This document shows, piece after piece, positions 5,725-45,452 of a stretch of 64,000 bases of DNA (its first letter is position 1; each line of letters begins with the position of its first letter). The translations under genes were made by a program, and so were the position numbers. This stretch comes from Clostridia bacterium (lineage in GTDB: Bacteria > Bacillota > Clostridia > Christensenellales > CAG-138): NCBI GenBank assembly GCA_016292635.1, contig JAEDIC010000002.1:29609-93608 (forward strand). The letters run 5' to 3'. Under the pieces are notes generated by a model, which saw only the letters and a program-made list of their open reading frames with translations, had not been told where the DNA came from and made no database searches.

Positions 5725-5939
5725 TCAAGGAGGTGCATATTTAAATGGGAAAAACAGGACGAAAGAATAAAAGGTATACAGGAGAATTCAAGATAGGGGT
5801 TATAATGGATATGAGAGATAACCATATGGGTTATCGGGAAACAATAAGGAAATACTTTCCGGAATTAAAAGCAAAGAACTATGCATTCGTAAAGAAGTGG
5901 GAACGCATAAGTTATGCCATCAATCAGCGTCCATTTTAA
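5704..5939 (+). mobile_element. IS3-family element fragment (left end plus first 64 codons of orfA)
   Basis: TGCACCCCAAAAGTTAGACA (5704-5723) is 19/20 identical to the left end of the IS3 element at 18670-18689. ORF 5745-5939 (KRYTGEFKIGVI...VKKWERI) parallels OrfA of that element (KKYTPEFKKQVV...IMTWERI) and then breaks off. Confidence 0.6.
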
Positions 5940-6720: not shown

Positions 6721-6960
6721 AAATAGGACTTCGGATATAAAAATGTGATTGAATAAACCCGAAAAGAAAGCGTGATATTATTATACGGAAACAAATATAG
6801 AAACAAAAAAACAAATGTGATTAATGCCAATTTCCCCCACAAAATAGGAATATTTTAGAATCGCAAAGAAACCGATAAAATTTATATTCGAGAAAATAAT
6901 ATAGAAACAAATATAGAAACTAATGGAAAAGTATTGCAATGATGTATCTATGTGATTATA
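6721..6960. repeat. degenerate ~120-bp tandem duplication in the AT-rich region upstream of the TRAP locus
   Basis: An exact 17-bp direct repeat GAAACAAATATAGAAAC occurs at 6788-6804 and 6904-6920. AAATAGGA occurs at 6721 and 6842. ATGTGATT occurs at 6743, 6815 and 6950. The block order is the same in both units. Confidence 0.8.
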
Positions 6961-6962
6961 AT
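6934..6962 (+). promoter_or_regulatory. candidate promoter of the SDR-TRAP operon
   Basis: TTGCAA (6934-6939), 17 nt, then TATAAT (6957-6962). Confidence 0.5.
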
Positions 6963-7040
6963 GACAAATATAATAAAAACTCTAACCCACAACACATCAA
7001 TCCAATTAACCAAAATTTTGCTTAGGAGTGGATGTTCCCA

Positions 7041-7856
7041 ATGAAACATATGTTTGATATCAGTGAAAAGATAGCTGCCATTACCGGCGGCGGAGGCGTT
7101 ATCTGCGGTACTCTTGCCAAAAAGATGGCGGAATGCGGCGCAAGAATAGCAGTGCTGGATTTATCGCTTGAAGGTGCTCAGCGCACGGTGGATGCAATAA
7201 CCGAAGCCGGAGGGGATGCGATTGCTGTTGCTTGCGACGTTCTCAACAGAGAAAGCATTGAGCAGGCAGCCGGCAAGGTAATAGAGCGCTACGGACGGAT
7301 AGATATACTTATAAACGGAGCCGGTGGAAATCATCCAAAGGCAACCACCGGCCCGGATCACAGCTTTTTTGATTTGCCCCCTGAGTCTATAAGATGGGTA
7401 TTCGACCTGAACTGCCTCGGTTCTATAATGCCTACTCAGGTATTTGGCAAGTATATGGCAGAGCAGGATGGCGGCAGTATAGTAAACATCGCCTCCATGT
7501 CCAGCTTCAGGCCGCTGACGAAAACGCTGGCTTACAGCTCCGCAAAGAGCGCAGTAGCAAACTTTACGGAATGGGCAGCTACCCATTTTGCTCAGGAGTA
7601 CTCCTCAAATATAAGAGTAAATGCCATTGCTCCCGGATTTCTCCTCACCACTCAGAATTATTATCTTCTCAAAAATGAGGACGGCACCGATACTGCACGA
7701 GGAGAAGCTATCATGGCAAACACTCCGATGCGCCGCTACGGCGAACCCCAAGAGCTTGCCGGTGCAGTAATATTCCTCTGCTCTGAGGCAGCAAAGTTCA
7801 TTACCGGCGTAGTGTTGCCTGTAGACGGTGGCTTTAACGCATACAGCGGAGTATAA
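7041..7856 (+). CDS. SDR family oxidoreductase (sugar-acid dehydrogenase/reductase-like)
   Basis: ITGGGGVICG Rossmann motif, NGAGGNHPKATT and YSSAK catalytic motif. The ORF opens at 7032, but the ATG at 7041 has better spacing from AGGAG at 7024. Confidence 0.85.
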   Translation: MKHMFDISEKIAAITGGGGVICGTLAKKMAECGARIAVLDLSLEGAQRTVDAITEAGGDAIAVACDVLNRESIEQAAGKVIERYGRIDILINGAGGNHPKATTGPDHSFFDLPPESIRWVFDLNCLGSIMPTQVFGKYMAEQDGGSIVNIASMSSFRPLTKTLAYSSAKSAVANFTEWAATHFAQEYSSNIRVNAIAPGFLLTTQNYYLLKNEDGTDTARGEAIMANTPMRRYGEPQELAGAVIFLCSEAAKFITGVVLPVDGGFNAYSGV

Positions 7857-7936
7857 CTCAAATACAGTGTAATTAATTTGAAAGCCGACTGAAAACACAG
7901 ACAGCTTTCGCAAAATAAAACAAAGGGAGAAAGAAA

Positions 7937-8998
7937 ATGAAAAAATTAATCAGCATCCTCATGGTACTGGCTATGGCTCTCAGCCTGGTAGCTTGCGCTG
8001 CTCCCGCAGCAGAAGAAGCTCCTGTGACCGAAGAAACCTCTGTAGCTGAGACCGAAAACGCCGAAGAAGAACCTGCCGAAAAGTACGTTCTTAAGTTCAA
8101 TCACGTTCTCACCGATAAAGATCCTTATCATGAGGCATATCTGAAGTGGGCAGATGCCGTTGCCGAGAGGACCAATGGCGGCCTGACCATCGAAGTATTC
8201 CATAGCGGTCAGCTGGGTGTTGAAGAAGACATCATCGAACAGATCCGTGCCGGCGCCAACGTAGGCCAGAACACCGACTCCGCTCGTCTGGGCAACTATG
8301 TTCCCGACATCGCCGTTATGAATGCTCCTTACTTTGTAGAGAGCGTTGAAGAAGTACAGCAGCTCGCTGAGCTGGACACCGTAAAGGGCTGGATGGATCA
8401 GCTCGGTCAGGAATCCGGCATTAAGGTTCTGTCCTTCATGTGGATCCAGGGCTTCCGTCACATGGTAACCAACAAGCCCATTTACTCTCCTGAAGATCTG
8501 GCTGGTCAGCTTATCCGTACCCCCGGCGCTCCCATCTGGCAGGAGTCCATACGCGCTCTGGGCGCTGAGCCTGTTGCTCTGAACTTCTCCGAACTCTACA
8601 CCGGCGTTCAGACCAAGGTTGTTGACGGCGTTGAGAACGTTTACACCTCCACCTACAGTTCCAAGCTCTACGAAGTACTGTCTTACCTGAGCGAGACCGG
8701 TCACATCCTGCTGATCAACTTCGCAGTATGCTCTCAGGAATGGTTTGACAATCTGCCCGAAGAGTATCAGGTAATCCTTGAGGAAGAGTGCATGAAGGCT
8801 GGTCTGGAGTGCTCTCTCAAGCTCATGAACGAGGACGCTGCCGCTGCTAAGCAGGGCCTCCTCGATGCCGGCATGACCATCCTTGAGCCCGAAGATATCG
8901 ACATGGACGCTTTCCGCGCCGCTGGCGAAAAAGCTTACGAAGTACTGGGCCTCACTGAGGTTCGTGACGCAGTATGGGCAGAAATGGGCAAGAAATAA
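7937..8998 (+). CDS. TRAP transporter substrate-binding protein (DctP family), lipoprotein
   Basis: Signal peptide with lipobox LSLVAC. The DctP-like core starts KFNHVLTDKDPYHEAYLKWAD. DctQ and DctM genes follow. Confidence 0.9.
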   Translation: MKKLISILMVLAMALSLVACAAPAAEEAPVTEETSVAETENAEEEPAEKYVLKFNHVLTDKDPYHEAYLKWADAVAERTNGGLTIEVFHSGQLGVEEDIIEQIRAGANVGQNTDSARLGNYVPDIAVMNAPYFVESVEEVQQLAELDTVKGWMDQLGQESGIKVLSFMWIQGFRHMVTNKPIYSPEDLAGQLIRTPGAPIWQESIRALGAEPVALNFSELYTGVQTKVVDGVENVYTSTYSSKLYEVLSYLSETGHILLINFAVCSQEWFDNLPEEYQVILEEECMKAGLECSLKLMNEDAAAAKQGLLDAGMTILEPEDIDMDAFRAAGEKAYEVLGLTEVRDAVWAEMGKK

Positions 8999-9090
8999 TC
9001 CTTTAAAAAACTAATCAGAGTTACTCAATGCGGTGCGGCATTTATACGCCGCACCGCGTGTATAACGGCTGCAAGATAGTCAAAAGGGGA

Positions 9091-9636
9091 ATGAATCAAG
9101 TGAAAAAGTTCTATGAGCGGTTTTGCCAGATAGAAAATATTCTGGCTGTTACCTGCCTGGTTGCAATGATGTTGATAGTATTTGCCTCGGCGGTATTGCG
9201 CGCCTGCGGTCATCCATTGAACTGGGCAACTGATATTGCGTTGTTCCTAACTGCATGGGGCACTTTTCTGGGTGCTGACGTCGCATTCCGAGGCGGTAAG
9301 CTGGTTCGCGTAGATATGCTTACCAATGCTTTCCCTGAAAAATTTCAGAAGTGGCTCGCTGCCGCAATGTATGTGCTCATTTTGGGTTTCCTGTGCATGC
9401 TTATTTTCTACGGTATTGATCTTTCTATAACTACAAAGATGCGTACTTTTCAGGGTATTCCTGGATTCAGTTACACCTGGGTCACCATTGCTGTGCCAAT
9501 CAGCGCACTGTTTATGAGCATAACCGCAGTGCGGCATATCGTGGCAAATGTACGCAGAGCTCTGGGCAAAAATGCTGACGAATCAATTCAGGAGGAAAGT
9601 ATACTCTCCCTTGCTCAGAAAGAGGACAGCGAATAA
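9091..9636 (+). CDS. TRAP transporter small permease (DctQ family)
   Basis: Four predicted TM helices. The ATG at 9091 is preceded by AAAGGGGA. The ORF-track start at 9028 is probably too far upstream. Confidence 0.85.
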   Translation: MNQVKKFYERFCQIENILAVTCLVAMMLIVFASAVLRACGHPLNWATDIALFLTAWGTFLGADVAFRGGKLVRVDMLTNAFPEKFQKWLAAAMYVLILGFLCMLIFYGIDLSITTKMRTFQGIPGFSYTWVTIAVPISALFMSITAVRHIVANVRRALGKNADESIQEESILSLAQKEDSE

Positions 9637-9686
9637 AACGGATTTATATACATTATCTGAAAAAATTGATTATGAGGAAATAACAA

Positions 9687-10967
9687 ATGGGTACAGTAAT
9701 AATTGTGTTTCTCGCATTGCTGTTCTTGGGAATGCCGGTGGCCTTCTCTATTGCCATAGCGGGCGTTACTTTCTTCTTTCAGCATCCCGAGCTACCGATG
9801 ACTATGATCGTACAGCAACCTATATCCCAGACGCAGAATAGCGCAATGCTGGCTATTCCCCTGTTCATTTTGGCAGGTAATATAATGAATGCAGGCGGTA
9901 TTACCGCTAGGCTGGTAAAGTTCGCTGCTGTACTTACTAAAAATATGCGCGGCGGATTGGCCCAGTCCAGCGTTGTACTGAGCGCACTGATGGGCGGCGT
10001 ATCCGGCTCCGCCACTGCGGACGCCGCAATGGAAGCCCGTCTTCTCGGCCCCAGCATGGAGAAGGGAGGCTATGCAAGAGGATATTCCTCCAACGTTATA
10101 GCATGGACTTCTCTTATCACCGCCACCATTCCCCCGGGAATAGGCATCATAATTTACGGTACCGTAGGTGAAGTATCCATAGGCCGTCTGTTCATGTGCG
10201 GTCTGTTCATGGGACTGCTGATGATGGTCATATTGATGGTAACAGTGGCCATAACTTCCAAAAAGTACGGTTTTCAGAGCGAAAAGGGCGGACGTGCCAC
10301 AGGAAAGGAACTGTGGGAGAGCTTTAAAGAATGTATATGGGCGCTGTTTTTCCCCATCCTGCTGCTGGTAGGTATACGTCTTGGCCTGTTTACTCCTTCT
10401 GAGGTAGGCTCTTTTGCCTGCGTATACGGCTTGCTGGTCGGTGCGTTTATTTACAAGGAGCTTAACTGGGAGACTCTCAAGCATGCTCTGAACGTAAGCA
10501 TGATAGACATTGGCGCCATCATGCTGATAATCGCCATGAGCGGTTCTTTTGGATATGGTATCCCCTTTGAGCAGGTTCCCCAGAAGCTGACTTCGTTCAT
10601 GCTTAACATATCTTCCAACAAGTATATCGTAATGATTCTCATCGTGTTTGTGCTTACCATACTGGGCATGTTCATGGAAGGTTCTGTTACTATACTGCTC
10701 CTCACTCCCATATTCCTGCCCTTGGTAAGGTCTCTGGGCGTAGACCCCGTCCACTTCGGCCTTATTATGTGCACTACGGTCACCATGGGCCTGAACACGC
10801 CGCCTGTTGGTATATCCATGTACGCCACAAATCAGATACTGGATACGGATATGAAGTCCTATATAAAGTATATGTGGCCCTTCCTTTTTGCGGTTTTGTT
10901 GGAAATAGCGGCAATGATATTTGCCCCCAACCTTATGCTGTTCCTGCCTAACTTACTGTATAGCTAA
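9687..10967 (+). CDS. TRAP transporter large permease (DctM family)
   Basis: 426-aa polytopic membrane protein with a typical DctM N-terminus MGTVIIVFLALLFLGMPVAFSIA. Confidence 0.9.
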   Translation: MGTVIIVFLALLFLGMPVAFSIAIAGVTFFFQHPELPMTMIVQQPISQTQNSAMLAIPLFILAGNIMNAGGITARLVKFAAVLTKNMRGGLAQSSVVLSALMGGVSGSATADAAMEARLLGPSMEKGGYARGYSSNVIAWTSLITATIPPGIGIIIYGTVGEVSIGRLFMCGLFMGLLMMVILMVTVAITSKKYGFQSEKGGRATGKELWESFKECIWALFFPILLLVGIRLGLFTPSEVGSFACVYGLLVGAFIYKELNWETLKHALNVSMIDIGAIMLIIAMSGSFGYGIPFEQVPQKLTSFMLNISSNKYIVMILIVFVLTILGMFMEGSVTILLLTPIFLPLVRSLGVDPVHFGLIMCTTVTMGLNTPPVGISMYATNQILDTDMKSYIKYMWPFLFAVLLEIAAMIFAPNLMLFLPNLLYS

Positions 10968-10985
10968 AGAAAGGACTTACCGCTA

Positions 10986-11744
10986 ATGAAACGTTTTGAT
11001 AATAAGGTCGTGCTGGTCACCGGCGCAGGTGCCGGCATAGGCCGCGCCGCCGCAGAAAAATTTGCTGCCGAGGGCGCAAAGGTGGTATGCAATTCCGTTG
11101 ATGAATCCGCAAGGCCCACCGCTGAACAGCTTGCCGCTGCAGAGGCGGAAGCGATATTCATACAGGGCAACATCGCAAACGAGGATGATGTGCGCCGTAT
11201 GGTGGATATGGCTGTGGATACCTATGGCCGCATAGATGTATTGATAAACAATGCGGGCATAGTTCGCGGCGGCACCGTTGAAAATACCACCGTAAGCGAT
11301 TTCAGGCTCACCATGGATATAAATGTTATTGGCACATTCCTAATGAGCCAGTATACCGTTCCCTATATGCTTAAGCAGGGCGGCGGCGTAATAGTAAACA
11401 CCGCTTCCGTGGCAGGCCTTAAGGGACATACCAATCGAATATCCTATGCTGCCAGCAAGGGCGCGGTTATTGCCCTCACCAAGTCTATGGCTACGGAGCT
11501 GTGTGGGAAGAATATCCGCGTGAACTGCGTGTGTCCCGGCACTACGCTCACACCTTCACTGAAGGATCGCATCAATGCATCGCCGGATCCTGAGGCTACC
11601 ATGGCTGAGTTCTGCGCTCGCCAGCCCATAGGCAGGTTGGGAGACCCCAGTGAGATTGCGGAGGCCATTTTGTTTGCCGCCTGTGATCAGGCAGCGTATA
11701 TGACAGGCGCTTCTATAATCATCGATGGCGGAATGACCATGTAA
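10986..11744 (+). CDS. SDR family NAD(P)-dependent oxidoreductase
   Basis: VTGAGAGIGRA, NNAG and YAASKGA motifs. 252 aa, classical SDR. Confidence 0.85.
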   Translation: MKRFDNKVVLVTGAGAGIGRAAAEKFAAEGAKVVCNSVDESARPTAEQLAAAEAEAIFIQGNIANEDDVRRMVDMAVDTYGRIDVLINNAGIVRGGTVENTTVSDFRLTMDINVIGTFLMSQYTVPYMLKQGGGVIVNTASVAGLKGHTNRISYAASKGAVIALTKSMATELCGKNIRVNCVCPGTTLTPSLKDRINASPDPEATMAEFCARQPIGRLGDPSEIAEAILFAACDQAAYMTGASIIIDGGMTM

Positions 11745-28923: not shown

Positions 28924-28953
28924 TTGACAAAATGATTCTATATAATATATAAT
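28924..28953 (+). promoter_or_regulatory. promoter of the T-box leader
   Basis: TTGACA (28924-28929), 18 nt, then TATAAT (28948-28953). Confidence 0.7.
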
Positions 28954-28974
28954 ACGTTTCAGTTGGAAATGAAA

Positions 28975-29256
28975 AGGCCATGACGGCGAAATAGTACCAT
29001 GAACGGAGCCTTCAGAGAGTTGACGGACGGTGCAAGTCAACAGGCGGCCGCTTGGGAATACACGCTATCAGCCTCCCCCCGAAAGGAAACCGGTAGGCGG
29101 GGACGGGCTTCACCCGTTACAGTGATAGAGTATAGGGCGGCTATGCCGCATTGGGGTACTCGAAAAGGTCCGGTATCGCGAGAACCGGATGAATTGAGGT
29201 GGTAACACGGGATTTGGCGCTCGTCCTCTGCAAGGCAGGGGACGGGCCTTTTTGTT
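28975..29256 (+). promoter_or_regulatory. T-box riboswitch leader, probable Tyr (UAC) specifier
   Basis: AGTA (28993-28996), AGAGAG (29014-29019), distal-loop GGTGCAA (29029-29035), specifier context GAA-TAC-A (29056-29062), T-box sequence AATTGAGGTGGTAACACGG (29192-29210), and terminator stem plus TTTTT (29216-29253). Confidence 0.8.
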
Positions 29257-29339
29257 CCCGGCAAAGATATTTCGGCTGGCATCGCCGCCAAAAGATGCCT
29301 CCGAAAAATCAAATATTATTTTTCAGGAGGAAACACAAA

Positions 29340-30785
29340 ATGAGCAAAGTAAAACTTTTCAGCGGCGAAAACATACCCCTTGAGATGCACAAGGTGCGTA
29401 TAGTTCAGAAGCTTAATCTGCCCCCGGTGGAGGACCGGCTTGCCGCCATGAAAGAGGCTGGCAACAATACCTTCCTTCTTCATAACCGTGATGTATTCAT
29501 GGATATGCTTACCGACAGCGGCGTAAACGCCATGAGCGACAATCAGCTTGCCGCCATGATGATGGCGGATGACGCATACGCCGGCAGCGAGACCTTCAAC
29601 CGCCTCCATTCAAAGCTTAAGGAGATATTCGGCATGGAATTCTTTCTGCCCGCCCATCAGGGCCGTGCGGCGGAGCATATAATTGCCAAAACATTCGTAA
29701 AGCCCGGGGACGTGGTTGCCATGAATTTCCACTTTACCACCACCAAGGCACATATAACCGAATGCGGCGGCAGAGTTGAGGAGCTTGTAAGCGACGAGGG
29801 TATCAACACCACCAGCCGCTGCCTTTTCAAAGGAAATATGGATCTCAATAAGCTTACTGACTGCATCGCCCGCAATCAGGGCCATATGGCCTTCATCCGG
29901 ATGGAAGCCGGCACCAACCTTATCGGCGGTCAGCCTGTATCCCTCCAGAACTTCAGGGATGTAACAAAGATTGCCAAGGATAACGGCATACTGACCGTGC
30001 TGGACGCAAGCCTCCTCCAGGACAATCTGCACTTTATAAAGACCCGTGAGGAGGCCTGTGCGGATATGAGCATACGGGAGATAACCCGAGCCATAGCCGA
30101 CTGCTTTGATATAGTATACTTCTCCGCCCGCAAGCTGGGCTTTGCCCGGGGCGGCGGCATATGCACACGGGACGCCGCGCTCTCGGAGAGCATGAAGGAG
30201 CTTGTGCCCATGTTTGAGGGTTTCCTTACATACGGCGGCATGAGCGTAAGGGAGATGGAAGCCATCACCGTTGGCCTTGAGGAGACTATGGATGAGGATA
30301 TCATCAACCAGGGCCCAATGTTTATTGAATTTATGACCAATGAGCTGGTAAAGCGCGGCATACCCGTGGTAACTCCCGCAGGCGGCCTTGGCTGCCATCT
30401 GAACGCTCGTGAGTTCCTGCCCCAGCTCAACGACCATCAGTACCCCGCAGGGGCACTTGCTGCCGCAATATACATCGCAAGCGGCGTAAGGGGCATGGAG
30501 CGCGGAACCCTTTCGGAGCAGCGTGAGCCTGACGGCACCGAACCCATCGCCGCGATGGAGCTTGTGCGTCTTGCACTGCCGCGCCGTGTATTCACCCTGT
30601 CTCAGGTCATGTACGCCGTTGACCGCATAGACTGGCTGTTCAGGAACCGCCATCTCATCGGCGGCCTCCGCTGGGTGGAAGAGCCCAAGGTGCTGCGTTT
30701 CTTCTTTGGCAGATTGGAAGCCGATGGCGATTGGCAGGAGCGGCTTGCCTCAGCCTTCCGCCGGGATTTCGGCGACAGCTTATAA
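29340..30785 (+). CDS. beta-eliminating lyase family PLP enzyme, tyrosine phenol-lyase-like
   Basis: Strong similarity to TPL/TnaA throughout (NTFLL..D.F.D.LTDSG.NAMSD.Q.A.MM..D.AYAGS). The PLP-Lys context is FSARK. The TPL-type discriminators FTTT, GMERG and LRFFF are present. The ATG at 29340 follows AGGAGG, so the ORF-track start at 29199 lies inside the leader. Confidence 0.85.
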   Translation: MSKVKLFSGENIPLEMHKVRIVQKLNLPPVEDRLAAMKEAGNNTFLLHNRDVFMDMLTDSGVNAMSDNQLAAMMMADDAYAGSETFNRLHSKLKEIFGMEFFLPAHQGRAAEHIIAKTFVKPGDVVAMNFHFTTTKAHITECGGRVEELVSDEGINTTSRCLFKGNMDLNKLTDCIARNQGHMAFIRMEAGTNLIGGQPVSLQNFRDVTKIAKDNGILTVLDASLLQDNLHFIKTREEACADMSIREITRAIADCFDIVYFSARKLGFARGGGICTRDAALSESMKELVPMFEGFLTYGGMSVREMEAITVGLEETMDEDIINQGPMFIEFMTNELVKRGIPVVTPAGGLGCHLNAREFLPQLNDHQYPAGALAAAIYIASGVRGMERGTLSEQREPDGTEPIAAMELVRLALPRRVFTLSQVMYAVDRIDWLFRNRHLIGGLRWVEEPKVLRFFFGRLEADGDWQERLASAFRRDFGDSL

Positions 30786-30871: not shown

Positions 30872-32083
30872 TTATGCCTCCCCTTTCTTCCATTCCTTAA
30901 TGCCGATGGTTATGGCTATGCCTATAACCGCAAAGGCCATTATAACGAGGAACGTGCCGCTGTAGGACAAACTGCCGCAGGCAGGTCCAAGGTAGGATGC
31001 GATAATAAGGTTAAGGTTTACAAGGCTAAAATTAAAGGCGTAGTTCTTACTTCCGAAGAAATAAGAGGCGTATGCGGAATTGGTAGGAGTAACGCCGCCA
31101 TAGGCGAGGCCAAGGAATATAAAGCCCGCTGCAAGCACGGGTATACTCATTGTGCCGTTTGCGGCAAGGAGGGCTGCGGATGCGCATATAAACATGGCGC
31201 AGACGGCAATCATAGTTTTGCGGTAGCCAATTTTATCAAAAAGCTGGCCGAATATTATGCGGCCAACGCCGTTTGCAATGGACACCATTCCCGCAAGGGC
31301 TGCGGCACGGGCAAGATTATCCCCAACGAAGCACTGGGCAAAGGACGCCGCCTCGTTCATTATCGCGAGACCTGCGGCGGAAAGTATGATGGCCCATATA
31401 AAATACAGCCAGAACTGCTTTTGCCGTATCATTTCCTTCCAATTCATATCGCGCAAGGAAGCCTTCGCCTTGCCGCCCGCAGACATTTTTGCGGCAAACT
31501 CACCGGGGGCTATCTTAAGTATAAAGGCACCTATGAGTATGACGGCGAAGAACACAAGGCCGAATATCAAAAATGTCTTTCGCCAGCCTATTGAGCCTAT
31601 AAGATTTGCGCTGAGCGTACCGAACACCATGCCACCAAATCCAAATCCCATAAGGGCGATGCCGGACACAAGGCCCTTTTTATCCGGAAACCATGACATA
31701 ACCACGCTGAGGCAGGCATTGTAACCCAAACCAACGCCAAGGCCGCACAGCAGGCTATATGTGCAGCATATGCCCACAAGACCCTTTGCCATGGAGGCGG
31801 CGGAAAAGCCTGCCAGCATACACACGGCGCTGCATATAACGGTGACGCGTATGCTGAACCTTTTCTGCATCATGCCGGAAACGAGACCCCCAAGGCAGAA
31901 AAGCATCATGCTTACGGAAAACACCAGCGATGCCTGGGAGGGAGCCCAGCCGAACTCGGTTTCCAACGGTATTCTGAATACTGACCAGGCGTATATGAGC
32001 CCAAGAAACAGCAGCAGAAGCGTGCAGAGGGTAAGGTATCCCCAACGCAGCGCGGAAAGTTCAACAGCGTTTTTCTTTTCCAT
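30872..32083 (-). CDS. MFS transporter (oxalate/formate antiporter-like)
   Basis: 12-TM MFS. The N-terminus after M at 32083 (MEKKNAVELSALRWGYL...) resembles the OFA family. Confidence 0.75.
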   Translation of the reverse strand: MEKKNAVELSALRWGYLTLCTLLLLFLGLIYAWSVFRIPLETEFGWAPSQASLVFSVSMMLFCLGGLVSGMMQKRFSIRVTVICSAVCMLAGFSAASMAKGLVGICCTYSLLCGLGVGLGYNACLSVVMSWFPDKKGLVSGIALMGFGFGGMVFGTLSANLIGSIGWRKTFLIFGLVFFAVILIGAFILKIAPGEFAAKMSAGGKAKASLRDMNWKEMIRQKQFWLYFIWAIILSAAGLAIMNEAASFAQCFVGDNLARAAALAGMVSIANGVGRIIFGQLFDKIGYRKTMIAVCAMFICASAALLAANGTMSIPVLAAGFIFLGLAYGGVTPTNSAYASYFFGSKNYAFNFSLVNLNLIIASYLGPACGSLSYSGTFLVIMAFAVIGIAITIGIKEWKKGEA

Positions 32084-32261
32084 ATTAATGATATTTCCTC
32101 TGTGATAAAAGATATGTTCAATTATATAATACATTCCGCCGTTTGTCTCGCAAATTCATTCCAATATACTATCCATAAACCCAATTATGTTATCCAATAT
32201 CCAGTTGTTATATGGTAAAATGAATTATCAGGATATACCATTGCTCCAAGGAGGTCATCAT

Positions 32262-44345: not shown

Positions 44346-44867
44346 CTATGTTTTTATTCTTTCGCAGGATGCTTCTATCGCCCTTTTCAACGCCGGCAGC
44401 AATACCAGCACCGCAGCAAAGTTGCCGGCACAGTGTATAAGGTCAAAGGGTATGCCGCTTATCCAGTATGAAAACGCCGCCGTCCATCCCCCCGCAAAGA
44501 GATAGGGGATGGAGCACAGCGCCCCAAAGCACAACCCGAATACCGCTGCGGCAATTGCCCAGAACAGCCTGCTTTCCGTACCTTTAAACAACATGGTTAT
44601 GCATACCAGCAACGGCCATATGTAAAGATATGATATCCACCATATGCCAAAGCCGTATATCAGCCCCTCCAGCATAACGTATACAGCCACAGCGTACATC
44701 ATTCGCCATCCAAAATACAGCGTTCCCGCTATTATGAACACCGCAACGGGATGTATATTTGGCAGGGCCATCATGGCGGCCTTGAGGGCGAACATCAGCG
44801 CCCCCAGCATTGCCAGCACCGCCATCTCCCTGGCGGAAAGCCTGTTACCAGTCATAGCCGGTGACAA
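44346..44867 (-). CDS. small polytopic membrane protein (ECF S-component-like), downstream of DUF4430
   Basis: 173 aa with ~6 TM helices. It overlaps the stop of the DUF4430 gene and sits under a cobalamin riboswitch. Confidence 0.5.
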   Translation of the reverse strand: MSPAMTGNRLSAREMAVLAMLGALMFALKAAMMALPNIHPVAVFIIAGTLYFGWRMMYAVAVYVMLEGLIYGFGIWWISYLYIWPLLVCITMLFKGTESRLFWAIAAAVFGLCFGALCSIPYLFAGGWTAAFSYWISGIPFDLIHCAGNFAAVLVLLPALKRAIEASCERIKT

Positions 44868-45246
44868 GGGTTATCTCGTATTTGTCCCCATCGCTTATCA
44901 TGGTGTCGTCAACGCCGGTCATAAGCATCTCGCCGTCCATGGTAAAGCACCACCACTCCTCAATGGAACTGTCCGCTTCCTCACCGTCAACAACCGTAAC
45001 AAACATGGTTCCGCTGCTGTCGTCGCCGTCAATAAGCTCTTCCTGTTCCAGTACGCCCCTAAGGTTTTCACTGTCTGTGGCAATATAGAACTCTGCCTCG
45101 CTGCCGTCCCCGTGTATCACCAAAACGGTTATGCTCTTATTCCCATTCTCCGCCTTTGGGCCGAATGCGGCATAACAGGCGATAAACGCCGCTATAAGCA
45201 GTACTGCGATGACTATCGCAATGATGGTTCTCTTTGTGTTTTTCAT
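44845..45246 (-). CDS. DUF4430 domain protein (membrane-anchored/secreted)
   Basis: N-terminal anchor TIIAIVIAVLLIAAFIA. DUF4430-like C-terminal pattern WWCFTMDGEMLMTGVDDTMISDGDKYEITL. The ATG is at 45246. Confidence 0.65.
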   Translation of the reverse strand: MKNTKRTIIAIVIAVLLIAAFIACYAAFGPKAENGNKSITVLVIHGDGSEAEFYIATDSENLRGVLEQEELIDGDDSSGTMFVTVVDGEEADSSIEEWWCFTMDGEMLMTGVDDTMISDGDKYEITLVTGYDW

Positions 45247-45291
45247 TAAAAATCTCTCCTTTTCTTTTTTCGCACAACTTTGCCATGCAAA

Positions 45292-45452
45292 GAAAAAGAG
45301 AGACCGGGCAGATATTTCTGCCATGATAATACAAATCGGCCGGGGTTCCGCAGCTCTTTGCATGGCTCCTTGGGCAGGTATTCTGACTTTGCGGGATGTA
45401 TCCCGGCTTCACAGTGACGGCCTCGCGGAAGAATCTCACTTCCATTCCCCTG
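45292..45452 (-). promoter_or_regulatory. cobalamin riboswitch
   Basis: The minus-strand RNA reads GGGGAAUGGAAGUGAGAUUCUUCC...GCCGUCACUGUGAAGCC...AAGUCAGAAUACCUGCCC, which includes a B12-box-like element. It is followed by the terminator GGCAGAAAUAUCUGCC plus a U-rich run. Confidence 0.75.

What the first reader, a model, noticed from the sequence alone, without database searches (positions are those of the whole stretch)
28924..30785. Tyr-specifier T-box riboswitch controlling a tyrosine phenol-lyase-type enzyme
A consensus-like promoter is followed by a ~280-nt leader with T-box hallmarks. These are AGTA, the AGAGAG bulge, distal-loop GGTGCAA, specifier context GAA-TAC-A (29056-29062), the T-box sequence AATTGAGGTGGTAACACGG, and a competing terminator (29216-29253). 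By the GAA-codon-purine rule the specifier is UAC (Tyr). The regulated ORF is a TnaA/TPL-family PLP lyase, and its discriminating positions match TPL rather than tryptophanase as I recall the reference sequences:
- FTTT versus TnaA FDTT (TPL Thr124).
- GMERG versus TnaA AVEIG (TPL Met379/Arg381).
- LRFFF versus TnaA LRHFT (TPL Phe448).
T-boxes turn genes on when the cognate tRNA is uncharged, and they normally control aaRS, biosynthesis or uptake genes. A nominally degradative TPL induced by tyrosine starvation implies use in the synthetic direction, either phenol + pyruvate + ammonia to tyrosine or beta-replacement. That would be a phenol-dependent tyrosine salvage route in a phenol-rich anaerobic niche.
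Basis: partly seen in the sequence, partly recalled or inferred. Interest (0 to 1): 0.7.

Follow-up and report, generated by a model that had tools for sequence, protein, structure and literature searches.

The report
Tyrosine T-box controlling phenol-lyase-like enzyme
An RNA switch that senses uncharged tyrosine tRNA turns on an uncharacterised relative of the tyrosine-splitting enzyme tyrosine phenol-lyase when tyrosine runs short, which suggests this widespread enzyme makes tyrosine (probably from phenol) rather than destroying it.

Summary
A perfect sigma-70 promoter at 28924-28953 is followed by a T-box leader at 28971-29231 (Rfam RF00230, 96.9 bits). Its specifier is UAC (Tyr, 29059-29061). 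It has an antiterminator, a competing terminator, and one gene at 29340-30785.

The enzyme is not a canonical tyrosine phenol-lyase (TPL) or tryptophanase. It fails both NCBIfam equivalog cut-offs. It belongs to a compact third clade of 481-482 aa proteins, about 40% identical to TPL. The clade keeps the TPL phenol-pocket residues (T124, M379, R381, F448) but replaces residues conserved in both known enzymes (R217L, K256R, E69D, N262R).

Orthologues are 65-76% identical across many phyla.
- 25 Firmicutes copies carry a T-box, and all have UAC.
- Six other copies carry upstream leader peptides rich in Tyr codons (YYYY, YYSYYY). Five of them have an intrinsic terminator, and in three the switch logic can be read directly.
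- Regulated copies are depleted in Tyr; the window protein has 6 Tyr in 481 residues.

Induction by tyrosine shortage is therefore a recurrent trait of the clade. This is the opposite of catabolic TPL.

An anabolic role, making tyrosine from phenol, is the best inference. It is biochemically untested.

The parts
28924..28953 (+). Sigma-70 promoter, -35 TTGACA (28924-28929), 18-nt spacer, -10 TATAAT (28948-28953)
   Evidence: 12 of 12 consensus matches. The region has 5 promoter-like sites against 1.0 +/- 1.1 in shuffles.
28971..29231 (+). T-box leader RNA: Stem I, the Stem II/IIA-B region, Stem III and the antiterminator
   Evidence: RF00230, 96.9 bits (gathering score 93), E 4.6e-20, model positions 1-219 of 219, not truncated.
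28977..29072 (+). Stem I with the specifier loop (5' side AAAUAGUA 28989-28996, 3' side GAAUACA 29056-29062), the AG bulge (29014-29019) and the distal loop (29025-29035)
   Evidence: On 17 orthologous leaders, 78% of cells pair against 41-49% when partners are slid. 15 of 19 pairs have compensatory changes. 0 of 500 shuffles reach the observed covariation score.
29059..29061 (+). Specifier codon UAC (Tyr), followed by the conserved purine A at 29062
   Evidence: UAC plus a purine sits in the same aligned columns in all 25 leaders upstream of orthologues.
29192..29228 (+). T-box sequence (29192-29210, tRNA acceptor-end binding UGGU at 29200-29203) and the antiterminator helix (29196-29228)
   Evidence: aligned to the conserved GGUGGUACCGCG block. 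(antiterminator fold, -7.9 kcal/mol).
29219..29257 (+). Intrinsic terminator: 13-bp stem GCUCGUCCUCUGC/GCAGGGGACGGGC plus a U-run. Its 5' arm overlaps the 3' arm of the antiterminator.
   Evidence: 13 pairs, 9 G-C, tail CTTTTTGTTC. (-26.8 kcal/mol, z -3.12).
29325..29330 (+). Shine-Dalgarno sequence AGGAGG, 9 nt before the ATG
   Evidence: Read directly from the sequence.
29340..30785 (+). Monocistronic gene for a 481-aa PLP enzyme of a third clade of the tryptophanase/TPL family. It has a TPL-type phenol pocket and only 6 Tyr residues.
   Evidence: family scores and PDB hits; clade and its distribution; residue signature and tree; Tyr content.

Best explanation
A constitutive sigma-70 promoter drives a 5' leader about 380 nt long that is a classical transcription-attenuating T-box riboswitch.

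Stem I presents the codon UAC to the anticodon of tRNA-Tyr(GUA). If that tRNA is uncharged, its free ACCA end pairs with the UGGU bulge. This stabilises the weak antiterminator (29196-29228) against the much stronger terminator (29219-29257). RNA polymerase then reads into the single downstream gene. These RNA elements and their arrangement are shown. tRNA binding itself is inferred from the family.

The gene product is a PLP enzyme of a hitherto undefined, widely distributed third clade of the tryptophanase/tyrosine phenol-lyase family.
- It keeps all catalytic residues (Tyr71, Lys257, Asp214, Asn185, Arg100, Arg404).
- It keeps the full TPL phenol-binding pocket (Thr124, Met379, Arg381, Phe448, Phe449).
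- It has clade-invariant changes next to the cofactor and at the monovalent-cation site (R217L, K256R, E69D, N262R, M288F).
- It has a C-terminal extension of about 22 aa.

The same orthologue group is placed under Tyr-tRNA-sensing control by two kinds of device in different lineages: T-boxes and Tyr-codon leader peptides of at least two unrelated designs. Regulated copies are poor in tyrosine. The enzyme is therefore needed when tyrosine is scarce.

The only tyrosine-yielding reaction known for this chemistry is C-C bond formation between phenol and a PLP-aminoacrylate. The aminoacrylate comes from pyruvate plus ammonium, or from serine or cysteine. I therefore infer that the enzyme works in vivo as a tyrosine synthase that salvages phenol. 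This last step is inference only.

My sub-confidences are:
- Tyr-responsive T-box: 0.95.
- Distinct clade with a TPL-like pocket: 0.9.
- Physiological role in tyrosine supply: 0.7.
- Phenol as the co-substrate: 0.5.
For: T-box:
- RF00230 at 96.9 bits, full length.
- Promoter and terminator.
- Competing antiterminator and terminator folds.
- Stem I covariation.
- A Stem I covariance model finds 25 leaders directly upstream of orthologues, all reading UAC plus a purine.
- 9 of 16 leaders tested pass Rfam's gathering score on their own (94-137 bits).

Enzyme:
- PF01212, and NF009709 at 562 bits.
- The best PDB matches are TPLs, E 1e-104 to 1e-107, against 6e-86 (Proteus-type) to about 1e-68 (E. 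coli) for tryptophanases.
- T/M/R/F at positions 124/379/381/448 in 94 of 94 clade members. TnaA-type representatives have D/V/[ILV]/H.
- The clade is monophyletic on a long branch in a neighbour-joining tree.

Independent regulatory evidence:
- L071 and L074 have a promoter, a leader ORF (MTNNRITKLNSYYYYGLR and MKNLFLTNCYYYYKQHSRT) and a strong terminator. Fold z-scores are -7.2 and -5.8.
- L094, L096 and L098 have the leader M/V-T-F/L-C/F-A-S-Y-(Y/S)-(S/L)-Y-Y-Y. A GGGGC(A/G) segment starts 3 nt after the stop codon. It can pair with the 5' arm of the terminator (A:B -10 to -11 kcal/mol, B:C -10 to -12 kcal/mol).
- Small upstream ORFs with at least 4 Tyr in 6 residues occur in 6 loci on the forward strand and in 0 on the reverse-complement control.

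Tyr depletion:
- The window protein has 6 Tyr in 481 residues, the lowest of 93 orthologues.
- T-box copies average 2.27% Tyr against 3.19% for unregulated copies. The GC-adjusted effect is -0.85 points, t -6.8.
- Within Firmicutes-labelled loci the figures are 2.31% against 3.37%, p 0.0012.
- Erwinia herbicola TPL has 23 Tyr.

Habitat:
- Carrier contigs come from pig gut.
- Record and contig names point to anaerobic-digester, termite-gut and ruminant-gut metagenomes.
Against: - There are no biochemical data for any clade member. The best PDB relatives are only about 40% identical.
- For canonical TPL the thermodynamics favour breakdown. Synthesis is normally run with 1-10 mM substrates (PMC13174591).
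- Nothing in the neighbourhood supplies or imports phenol. No neighbouring gene is conserved.
- The clade also occurs behind plain promoters, without any Tyr-sensing leader, in Bacteroidales, Proteobacteria and others. That includes R. palustris BisB18. There its role could differ.
- R217L and K256R change residues conserved in both characterised enzymes, so the chemistry may not be simple reverse TPL.
- Whether the host lacks prephenate or arogenate dehydrogenase could not be checked.
- The Tyr-depletion statistics are not corrected for phylogeny.
- Equilibrium folding with ribosome masks did not reproduce the switch in the L071 and L074 leaders.
Confidence: 0.55

Rival explanations
1. The enzyme handles a tyrosine-related compound other than phenol or tyrosine. 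For example, it could destroy a tyrosine antimetabolite that blocks TyrRS and so mimics starvation. It could convert a tyrosine derivative or D-tyrosine into usable L-tyrosine. It could run a beta-replacement with another aromatic nucleophile. Tyr-tRNA-sensing control would then switch on a rescue or detoxification enzyme rather than a synthase.
For: Clade-invariant changes at positions conserved in both TPL and TnaA (R217L, K256R, M288F, M18L) allow altered chemistry or an altered pocket. There is no phenol-related gene context. The thermodynamic objection to reverse TPL applies.
Against: The residues that hold the phenolic OH and sandwich the ring (T124, R381, M379, F448, F449) are invariant in 94 of 94 members. 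This argues for an unsubstituted 4-hydroxyphenyl group. Tyr depletion of the protein fits real tyrosine scarcity better than inhibition by an analogue. No candidate compound is indicated by any data.
Confidence: 0.2
2. It is an ordinary catabolic tyrosine phenol-lyase that produces phenol. The T-box is either decayed and constitutive, or it is fortuitously placed.
For: TPL-type pocket residues. One source annotates cluster members as 'tyrosine phenol-lyase'. TPL thermodynamics favour cleavage.
Against: The T-box is intact, with promoter, covarying Stem I, antiterminator and a strong terminator. It is conserved in 25 leaders over a wide GC range (0.32-0.68 for the Stem I matches) with an invariant UAC. 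Other lineages carry Tyr-codon leader peptides instead. Inducing a tyrosine-degrading enzyme during tyrosine starvation would be self-defeating. Phenol-producing gut isolates with a sequenced TPL gene carry TPLs 70-99% identical to Citrobacter TPL (PMC6424909), whereas this clade is about 40% identical to TPL-type proteins.
Confidence: 0.07
3. It is a general beta-eliminating lyase, such as a serine or cysteine deaminase or desulfhydrase. It would be recruited to an amino-acid-starvation response, with tyrosine sensing being incidental.
For: TnaA and TPL enzymes have side activities on Ser, Cys and S-alkylcysteines (established enzymology). The broad subfamily model NF009709 is the only curated model passed.
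Against: Two kinds of tRNA-charge-sensing control, T-boxes and leader peptides of at least two designs, all use tyrosine specifically. There is no other specifier among the 25 T-boxes. The phenol pocket is strictly conserved.
Confidence: 0.08
4. The specifier is mis-assigned and the T-box senses another tRNA.
For: The register rests on alignment to a covariance model and on the GAA-codon-purine rule, not on an experiment.
Against: UAC sits directly between the GAA of the S-turn and the purine that abuts the covarying lower helix in all 25 leaders. In the same columns a neighbouring, unrelated T-box (L018) shows a different triplet. Tyr-codon leader peptides in other lineages point to the same amino acid.
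Confidence: 0.02

Closest known systems
Bacillus subtilis tyrS T-box leader (the founding T-box, specifier UAC; Rfam RF00230)
   Same: It has the same architecture: a Stem I specifier loop with GAA-UAC-purine, the AG bulge and distal loop, the T-box sequence with its UGGN bulge, and mutually exclusive antiterminator and terminator. It is induced by uncharged tRNA-Tyr.
   Different: The regulated gene is not an aminoacyl-tRNA synthetase, a biosynthetic operon or a transporter. It is a member of a family known only for amino-acid degradation. No paper in the searchable library links T-boxes with TPL or tryptophanase.
Tyrosine phenol-lyase of Citrobacter freundii and Erwinia herbicola (EC 4.1.99.2; NCBIfam TIGR02618; PDB 2ez1, 1c7g)
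   Same: Fold-type I PLP enzyme. All catalytic residues are kept, as is the complete phenol pocket (T124, M379, R381, F448, F449). These are the best PDB matches.
   Different: Only about 40% identity. It scores 412 bits against a cut-off of 720.7. It has R217L, K256R, E69D, N262R, M288F, M18L and a C-terminal extension of about 22 aa. Canonical tpl is induced by tyrosine through TyrR (established knowledge, not tested here), whereas this gene is induced by tyrosine shortage.
Tryptophanase TnaA and the tna operon with the TnaC leader peptide (E. coli)
   Same: It belongs to the same protein family. NCBI's annotation pipeline names the clade 'tryptophanase'. The tna operon is also controlled through a leader peptide and transcription termination.
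   Different: The specificity residues are not TnaA-type: T/M/R/F here against D/V/I/H. It scores 314 bits against a cut-off of 825.8. TnaC senses excess tryptophan to induce catabolism (established knowledge). The leaders here sense lack of Tyr-tRNA.
Tryptophan synthase beta-subunit, stand-alone TrpB2 indole salvage, and the laboratory-evolved 'tyrosine synthase' TyrS derived from TrpB
   Same: This is the proposed functional analogue. An aromatic nucleophile (indole or phenol) is condensed with a PLP-aminoacrylate to give the aromatic amino acid, under starvation control.
   Different: TrpB is a fold-type II enzyme and unrelated in sequence. TyrS is an engineered enzyme without lyase activity (PMC13174591). 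I found no report of a natural tyrosine synthase in the searchable library.
Leader-peptide transcription attenuators of amino-acid operons (trp, pheA, his type)
   Same: Orthologue loci L071, L074, L094, L096 and L098 have a short ORF with a run of codons for the regulatory amino acid, followed by an intrinsic terminator. In L094, L096 and L098 an alternative antiterminator hairpin is evident.
   Different: The regulatory codons are Tyr, and the regulated gene is the TPL-like enzyme. In L071 and L074 the alternative pairing scheme is not resolved.

Membership tests
T-box leader (Rfam RF00230) | Covariance-model score at or above the curated gathering score | tested here: met
   96.9 bits against 93, E 4.6e-20, full length.
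T-box leader (Rfam RF00230) | Stem I with a specifier loop (S-turn AGUA...GAA), the codon at the 3' end of the loop followed by a purine, plus the AG bulge and distal loop | tested here: met
   From the alignment: GAA-UAC-A at 29056-29062, AGAGAG at 29014-29019, distal loop at 29025-29035. The helices covary across 17 leaders.
T-box leader (Rfam RF00230) | Conserved T-box sequence forming an antiterminator with a UGGN bulge, mutually exclusive with an intrinsic terminator | tested here: met
   AAUUGAGGUGGUAACACGG at 29192-29210. Antiterminator -7.9 kcal/mol against terminator -26.8 kcal/mol, sharing CUCGUCCUC.
T-box leader (Rfam RF00230) | Binding of the cognate uncharged tRNA, and tRNA-dependent antitermination | not testable with these tools
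   There is no tRNA gene in the window and no tRNA-Tyr in 28 related loci. This needs in vitro transcription.
Tyrosine phenol-lyase (NCBIfam TIGR02618 equivalog, EC 4.1.99.2) | Equivalog HMM score at or above the curated cut-off | tested here: not met
   411.8 bits against 720.7. Clade representatives P0121 and P0128 score 421.5 and 469.8. A canonical TPL (P0137) scores 733.
Tyrosine phenol-lyase (NCBIfam TIGR02618 equivalog, EC 4.1.99.2) | Catalytic and PLP residues: Tyr71, Lys257, Asp214, Asn185, Arg100, Phe123, Arg404 | tested here: met
   All are present in the window protein and invariant in 94 of 94 clade members.
Tyrosine phenol-lyase (NCBIfam TIGR02618 equivalog, EC 4.1.99.2) | Substrate-specificity residues: Thr124, Met379, Arg381, Phe448, Phe449 | tested here: met
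   T/M/R/F/F in 94 of 94 clade members. TnaA-type representatives have D/V/[ILV]/H.
Tyrosine phenol-lyase (NCBIfam TIGR02618 equivalog, EC 4.1.99.2) | Residues conserved in both TPL and TnaA near the cofactor and at the cation site: Arg217, Lys256, Glu69, Asn262 | tested here: not met
   Leu (93 of 94), Arg (94 of 94), Asp (94 of 94) and Arg (91 of 94) in the clade. The roles I assign to these residues are recalled from the TPL structural literature and were not checked here.
Tyrosine phenol-lyase (NCBIfam TIGR02618 equivalog, EC 4.1.99.2) | Reversible cleavage of L-tyrosine to phenol, pyruvate and ammonia | not testable with these tools
   Needs an enzyme assay. No clade member has a solved structure. 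I found no characterisation in the searchable library.
Tryptophanase (NCBIfam TIGR02617 and NF053783 equivalogs, EC 4.1.99.1) | Equivalog HMM score at or above the cut-off | tested here: not met
   313.8 bits against 825.8, and 360.5 against 750.
Tryptophanase (NCBIfam TIGR02617 and NF053783 equivalogs, EC 4.1.99.1) | Indole-pocket residues: Asp at TPL position 124, a small or aliphatic residue at 379 and 381, His at 448 | tested here: not met
   The window protein and the whole clade have T/M/R/F.
Broad tryptophanase/TPL subfamily (NCBIfam NF009709; Pfam PF01212 Beta_elim_lyase) | HMM score at or above the cut-off | tested here: met
   NF009709 at 562.3 bits against 285. PF01212 at 158 bits against 27.
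Leader-peptide transcription attenuator (applies to related loci, not to the window) | Short translated ORF with clustered regulatory codons, an intrinsic terminator, and an alternative antiterminator whose formation depends on ribosome position | tested here: inconclusive
   ORFs with Tyr runs and terminators are present in L071, L074, L094, L096 and L098. Antiterminator logic is evident in L094, L096 and L098. It is not reproduced by equilibrium folds in L071 and L074. Translation of the ORFs is untested.

The most novel reading that the evidence does not exclude
This clade is a natural, dedicated tyrosine synthase. It would be a fold-type I PLP enzyme that condenses environmental phenol with serine, or with pyruvate plus ammonium, to make L-tyrosine when Tyr-tRNA runs short. 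It is spread by horizontal transfer across many bacterial phyla. That would give a shikimate-independent last step to tyrosine and a phenol cross-feeding link in anaerobic communities. It would also mean that thousands of 'tryptophanase' annotations in gut and digester metagenomes name the wrong reaction and the wrong direction.
Probability: 0.45. Interest if true: 0.85.

Novelty: new variant of a known kind. Interest (0 to 1): 0.72.

Why it matters
1. T-boxes are known to control synthetases, biosynthetic operons and transporters. Finding one in front of a member of a family known only for degradation reverses the expected physiological direction of that enzyme. The T-box is conserved in 25 lineages, and other lineages use Tyr-codon leader peptides instead.
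2. If the enzyme makes tyrosine from phenol, it would be a natural counterpart of tryptophan synthase for tyrosine. So far that activity has been obtained only by directed evolution of TrpB. It would also be an attractive biocatalyst, because canonical TPL needs millimolar phenol.
3. The clade is abundant in gut, rumen, termite and digester metagenomes and is named 'tryptophanase' by automatic annotation. Estimates of indole- or phenol-producing capacity from gene counts would be inflated by it.
4. The regulatory pattern gives an immediately testable prediction. The gene should be induced by tyrosine limitation, and phenol should rescue a tyrosine requirement.

Tried and rejected
- **Gene neighbourhood.** I clustered ORFs from 82 loci all against all and ran Pfam on ten tightly linked downstream genes. 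No partner is conserved. The hits were an aminotransferase, a xylose-isomerase-like TIM-barrel protein, GAF, DUF1015 and others, once each. Context therefore says nothing about the pathway.
- **Host tRNA-Tyr.** None is present in the window or in 28 loci. The long tRNA next to the L010 gene is tRNA-Ser.
- **Canonical-TPL control.** I wanted to ask whether ordinary TPL genes of Firmicutes also carry T-boxes. The homologue search with the canonical TPL representative P0137 returned proteins that, where a source named them, were Acidimicrobiia or other Actinomycetota. The control was not obtained.
- **Default RNAalifold on the Stem I alignment.** It gave only 4 pairs. I replaced it with counting on the Rfam-derived structure.
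- **Equilibrium folding of the L071 and L074 leaders with ribosome footprints masked.** The terminator formed in all states, so the switch is not demonstrated that way. For L074 I propose a five-segment relay, by inference only.
- **Rfam at E up to 10 on the UAG-repeat leader of L014.** Only chance hits.
- **Tyr-rich leader ORFs in Proteobacteria, Actinobacteria, Spirochaetes and named Bacteroidales loci.** None found.
- **Literature.** Ten searches found no report of T-box control of TPL or tryptophanase, no natural anabolic TPL, and no description of this clade. Vitreschak et al. 2008 and Almhjell et al. 2024 are not held.
- **Structure prediction.** Not run. The questions of interest are the geometry of the cation site at the dimer interface and of the cofactor site, and the tool's output cannot answer them.


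Full report
**1. The observation**

- The promoter scan finds TTGACA-18-TATAAT at 28924-28953, with 12 of 12 consensus matches.
- Rfam's T-box model RF00230 matches 28971-29231 over its whole length. The score is 96.9 bits against a gathering score of 93, with E 4.6e-20.
- In that alignment the 3' strand of the specifier loop reads GAA-UAC-A (29056-62). It lies between the upper Stem I helix and the lower helix, so the specifier is UAC (29059-29061) followed by the usual purine.
- The AGUA, AGAGAG and GGUGCAA motifs align to the conserved S-turn, AG-bulge and distal-loop positions.
- The T-box sequence AAUUGAGGUGGUAACACGG (29192-29210) folds into a weak antiterminator of -7.9 kcal/mol.
- Its 3' arm, CUCGUCCUC, is also the 5' arm of a 13-bp terminator at 29219-29247 with a U-run. 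That hairpin has -26.8 kcal/mol and z -3.1.
- An AGGAGG site lies 9 nt before the ATG at 29340. The ORF runs to 30785 and encodes 481 aa.
- The next gene downstream is convergent (an MFS transporter, 30872-32134, minus strand). The upstream EamA gene ends before the promoter. The T-box therefore controls a single gene.

**2. The T-box is conserved with the gene, and the specifier never changes**

A scan of one genome per species found 592 stretches encoding relatives. The best 80 were fetched.
- A T-box sequence lies 70-220 nt upstream of the orthologue in 23 of them. All are labelled Clostridia or Bacillota: Oscillospiraceae, Christensenellales, Tissierellaceae, Tepidanaerobacteraceae, Alkaliphilus and others.
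- Nine of 16 leaders tested pass Rfam's high gathering score by themselves, at 94-137 bits.
- I built a covariance model of Stem I from 17 leaders. It finds 25 leaders in about 1 Mb of fetched sequence: the window, those 23 loci, and two leaders on metagenome-derived contigs, L005 and L093. All lie directly upstream of the orthologue.
- In the model alignment every one reads [G/A]A-A-UAC-[A/G] in the same columns. An unrelated T-box elsewhere in L018 reads AAU-G in those columns.
- The helices on both sides of the specifier loop covary. 78% of cells pair against 41-49% when partners are slid. 15 of 19 pairs show changes on both sides. No shuffle out of 500 reaches the observed covariation score.
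- The variable base of the UGGN bulge is U in all the leaders, which matches an A73 discriminator base. I recall that bacterial tRNA-Tyr has A73. This is compatible but does not discriminate.
- No tRNA-Tyr gene lies in the window or in the loci.

**3. What the enzyme is**

Pfam places the protein in Beta_elim_lyase. NCBIfam gives the following scores.

| Model | Score (bits) | Cut-off (bits) | Result |
|---|---|---|---|
| NF009709, broad 'tryptophanase' subfamily | 562 | 285 | passes |
| TIGR02618, TPL equivalog | 411.8 | 720.7 | fails |
| TIGR02617, tryptophanase equivalog | 313.8 | 825.8 | fails |
| NF053783, tryptophanase equivalog | 360.5 | 750 | fails |

- Clade representatives score lower against the TPL model (421.5 and 469.8 bits) than the tryptophanase-like proteins tested do (476-554 bits). 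A canonical TPL scores 733.
- The best solved structures are TPLs, at E 1e-104 to 1e-107 and about 40% identity. Tryptophanases follow at 6e-86 (Proteus-type) to about 1e-68 (E. coli).
- In a library clustered at 50% identity, only two full-length representatives are more than 45% identical to the query (65% and 48%). The next are at 42%.
- In an alignment of 94 clade members, 4 TPL-type and 23 TnaA-type representatives, mean identities are as follows.

| Comparison | Mean identity |
|---|---|
| Within the clade | 66% |
| Clade to TPL-type | 40.4% |
| Clade to TnaA-type | 35.2% |
| TPL-type to TnaA-type | 41.7% |

- A neighbour-joining tree puts the clade on its own long branch. Canonical TPLs sit inside the tryptophanase-like radiation. 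This is a distance tree without support values.
- The clade is therefore a third deep branch of the family.

All 94 members keep the catalytic residues Tyr71, Lys257, Asp214, Asn185, Arg100, Phe123 and Arg404 (TPL numbering). They also keep the whole TPL phenol pocket: Thr124, Met379, Arg381, Phe448 and Phe449. TnaA-type proteins have Asp, Val, Ile/Leu/Val and His at 124, 379, 381 and 448.

The clade also carries its own invariant changes.
- Arg217 to Leu (93 of 94) and Lys256 to Arg (94 of 94). Both positions are conserved in TPL-type and TnaA-type proteins alike.
- Glu69 to Asp (94 of 94) and Asn262 to Arg (91 of 94).
- Met288 to Phe and Met18 to Leu.
- A C-terminal extension of about 22 residues.

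From my memory of the TPL structures, Glu69 and Asn262 belong to the monovalent-cation site at the subunit interface. Arg217 and Lys256 contact the cofactor. A recent tryptophanase survey also calls the K+ site essential for the family (PMC12980246). An arginine at position 262 might replace the cation. This is speculation that needs a structure.

**4. Distribution**

- Orthologues of 481-482 aa are 65-76% identical to the window protein in genomes labelled Clostridia, Bacilli (Bacillus marasmi, Calidifontibacillus), Alphaproteobacteria, Beta- and Gammaproteobacteria, Bacteroidales, Akkermansia, Spirochaetes, Planctomycetes, Acidobacteria, Kiritimatiellota and Actinobacteria.
- The Alphaproteobacteria include Rhodopseudomonas palustris BisB18, Rhodovulum, Rhodobacter viridis and Rhodomicrobium. 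The Beta- and Gammaproteobacteria include Thauera, Thiocapsa and Thiopseudomonas.
- Some MAG labels may reflect mis-binning.
- No neighbouring gene is conserved. The gene is usually alone.
- The window protein's 90% cluster is labelled 'tryptophanase' from Christensenellales and Clostridia MAGs. One of the four contigs shown that carry the identical protein is named as a pig gut metagenome assembly.

**5. Independent evidence that the gene is wanted when tyrosine is scarce**

*(a) Two low-GC Firmicutes orthologue loci lack a T-box.* They have instead a promoter, a ribosome-binding site and a short ORF with four consecutive Tyr codons.
- L071 encodes MTNNRITKLNSYYYYGLR.
- L074 encodes MKNLFLTNCYYYYKQHSRT.
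- In each, two strong hairpins follow, the second being an intrinsic terminator. Fold z-scores are -7.2 and -5.8.

*(b) A metagenome scan with the L074 protein gave further loci.* L094, L096 and L098 carry a different leader: MTLCASYSLYYYYIFE, VTFFASYYSYYYLDKG and MTFCASYYSYYYLDKG.
- In these, a segment GGGGC(A/G) starts 3 nt after the leader's stop codon.
- It is complementary to the 5' arm (UGCCCCUC) of a terminator hairpin that is followed by a U-run.
- The antiterminator pairing has -10 to -11 kcal/mol. The terminator has -10 to -12 kcal/mol.
- A ribosome that reaches the stop codon would cover the first segment and allow termination. A ribosome stalled on the Tyr codons, about 20 nt upstream, would leave it free to form the antiterminator.
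- This logic is inferred from the geometry. Translation of the ORFs is untested.

*(c) L092 has ...CCAICYYYSYSRS.* No clear terminator was resolved in this locus.

*(d) Systematic scan.* Over 91 loci, small upstream ORFs with at least 4 Tyr in a 6-residue window occur in 6 loci on the coding strand. None occur on the reverse-complement control. All six loci lack a T-box.

*(e) Tyr content.* Proteins made during starvation for an amino acid tend to be poor in it.
- The window protein has 6 Tyr in 481 residues (1.25%), the lowest of 93 orthologues. Erwinia herbicola TPL has 23.
- T-box copies average 2.27% Tyr, Tyr-leader copies 2.81% and other copies 3.19%.
- After adjusting for GC the regulated copies are lower by 0.85 points, t -6.8.
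- Among Firmicutes-labelled loci alone, the means are 2.31% and 3.37%, p 0.0012.
- These tests are not corrected for shared ancestry.

**6. Mechanism**

*Shown.* The following are established by the results above:
- the RNA elements and their mutually exclusive pairings;
- the Tyr specifier;
- the linkage of Tyr-tRNA-sensing leaders to this orthologue group;
- the TPL-type pocket.

*Inferred from the T-box family.* Uncharged tRNA-Tyr stabilises the antiterminator and switches the gene on.

*Inferred from the regulation.* The product serves tyrosine supply.
- Canonical tpl is induced by tyrosine through TyrR. The tna operon is induced by excess tryptophan through TnaC. Both statements are established knowledge, and both are the opposite logic.
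- Within the chemistry of this family, the only route to tyrosine is addition of phenol to the PLP-aminoacrylate.
- That intermediate can be formed from pyruvate plus ammonium (reverse TPL) or from serine, cysteine or their derivatives (beta-replacement).
- Both reactions are known for TPL and are used industrially.
- The main objection is thermodynamic and kinetic. For canonical TPL breakdown is favoured, and synthesis is run at 1-10 mM substrate (PMC13174591).
- Three things could overcome this. Mass action helps when free tyrosine is drained and ammonium is high, as in gut or digester habitats. Serine could serve as the donor. The clade-specific changes near the cofactor could also matter. 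None of these was tested.

**7. Rivals**

- An enzyme acting on a tyrosine analogue or derivative remains possible, because cofactor-side and pocket-rim residues differ. The strictly conserved phenol-OH ligands argue for tyrosine and phenol themselves.
- A plain catabolic TPL is hard to reconcile with an intact and widely conserved starvation switch. Phenol-producing gut isolates with a sequenced TPL gene carry TPLs 70-99% identical to the Citrobacter enzyme (PMC6424909). This clade is about 40% identical to TPL-type proteins.
- A generic Ser/Cys lyase does not explain exclusive tyrosine sensing.
- Mis-assignment of the specifier is very unlikely.

**8. Comparison with what is known, and novelty**

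- The riboswitch is a regular member of the T-box family with a Tyr specifier, like B. subtilis tyrS.
- The regulated gene is new for that regulon as far as I could establish. None of ten full-text searches found a link between T-boxes and TPL or tryptophanase, a natural anabolic TPL, or a description of this clade. The main comparative T-box survey, Vitreschak et al. 2008, is not held. Prior mention there or in RegPrecise cannot be excluded.
- The enzyme fails the membership test for TPL and for tryptophanase, but works on the same scaffold with a TPL-like pocket.
- I therefore rate the finding as a new variant of known kinds. It combines a known switch with a new clade of a known enzyme family, and the physiological logic is inverted.

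**9. Limits**

- There is no biochemical or expression evidence.
- Whole genomes could not be inspected for tyrA.
- No control set of canonical TPL genes from Firmicutes was obtained.
- The taxon of the L094, L096 and L098 contigs is unknown. The absence of a Shine-Dalgarno sequence and a TAnnTTTG box hint at Bacteroidota, by inference only.
- The pairing scheme of the L071 and L074 leaders is unresolved.
- A third conserved leader type, with UAG repeats and a terminator, occurs in L014, L022 and L046. It is unexplained.

Noticed in passing
L014:5800-5945, L022:3950-4085, L046:4690-4845: Three Firmicutes orthologue loci have neither a T-box nor a Tyr leader. They share a conserved leader with (U/C)AG triplets repeated every 7-9 nt (for example CAGGACGG CAGGAUGG CAGGGUGG UAG), ending in an intrinsic terminator. 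No Rfam family matches at E up to 10. It may be a binding site for an RNA-binding attenuation protein (HutP- or TRAP-like) whose effector is unknown.
   Followed up: partly
L071:5679-5901 and L074:5610-5831: Leader ORFs with four consecutive Tyr codons lie between a promoter and a strong terminator. The two leaders share an architecture (CGGGUGA..GCUA..ACCCGU hairpin). Simple equilibrium folds with ribosome masks do not show the switch. In L074, AGCACUCAC (5727-5735, inside the ORF) is complementary to GUGAGUGCU (5760-5768). This suggests a five-segment relay.
   Followed up: partly
L018:11572-11824 (minus strand): A second T-box (RF00230, 110.7 bits) lies 5 kb from the orthologue. Its aligned specifier is AAU followed by G (possibly Asn, or AUG in another register). 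It precedes four co-directional ORFs at 6905-11503.
   Followed up: no
window:45356-45495 (minus strand): A cobalamin riboswitch (RF00174, 40.9 bits) lies upstream of a DUF4430 ORF (44845-45363, minus strand) and an unannotated 173-aa ORF (44346-44867, minus strand). This is probably a B12-binding and uptake pair.
   Followed up: partly
window:29340-30785 and clade members P0001-P0120: Sources name these proteins 'tryptophanase' (NCBI) or, in some cases, 'tyrosine phenol-lyase' (JGI). The NCBI name follows from the broad subfamily model NF009709. The pocket residues are not tryptophanase-type, so counts of tnaA in gut metagenomes may include this clade wrongly.
   Followed up: partly
L009-L088 (genome loci): Orthologues stay 65-76% identical across at least eight phyla and sit in unrelated gene contexts. 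This points to strong constraint plus frequent horizontal transfer. Purple phototrophs and anaerobic degraders of aromatic compounds (Rhodopseudomonas, Rhodomicrobium, Rhodovulum, Thauera, Thiocapsa) are conspicuous among the named isolates.
   Followed up: no
P0122-P0136 (representative search): Proteins of 850-930 aa contain two tandem tryptophanase/TPL-like stretches, each 32-37% identical to the query. These are apparently fused duplicates of the family, of unknown origin.
   Followed up: no
window:7032-16137: A cluster for sugar-acid catabolism. It contains a mannonate-oxidoreductase-like SDR, a TRAP transporter (DctP and DctM), a LacI-family regulator, a malate/sulfolactate-type dehydrogenase, KDPG aldolase and KDG kinase. 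It is unrelated to the finding.
   Followed up: no
L065:5854-5947: A weak match to the Stem I model (18.9 bits, E 0.15) elsewhere in a Desulfitobacteriaceae locus. The aligned specifier region reads UUUC, so it may be another T-box of different specificity.
   Followed up: no
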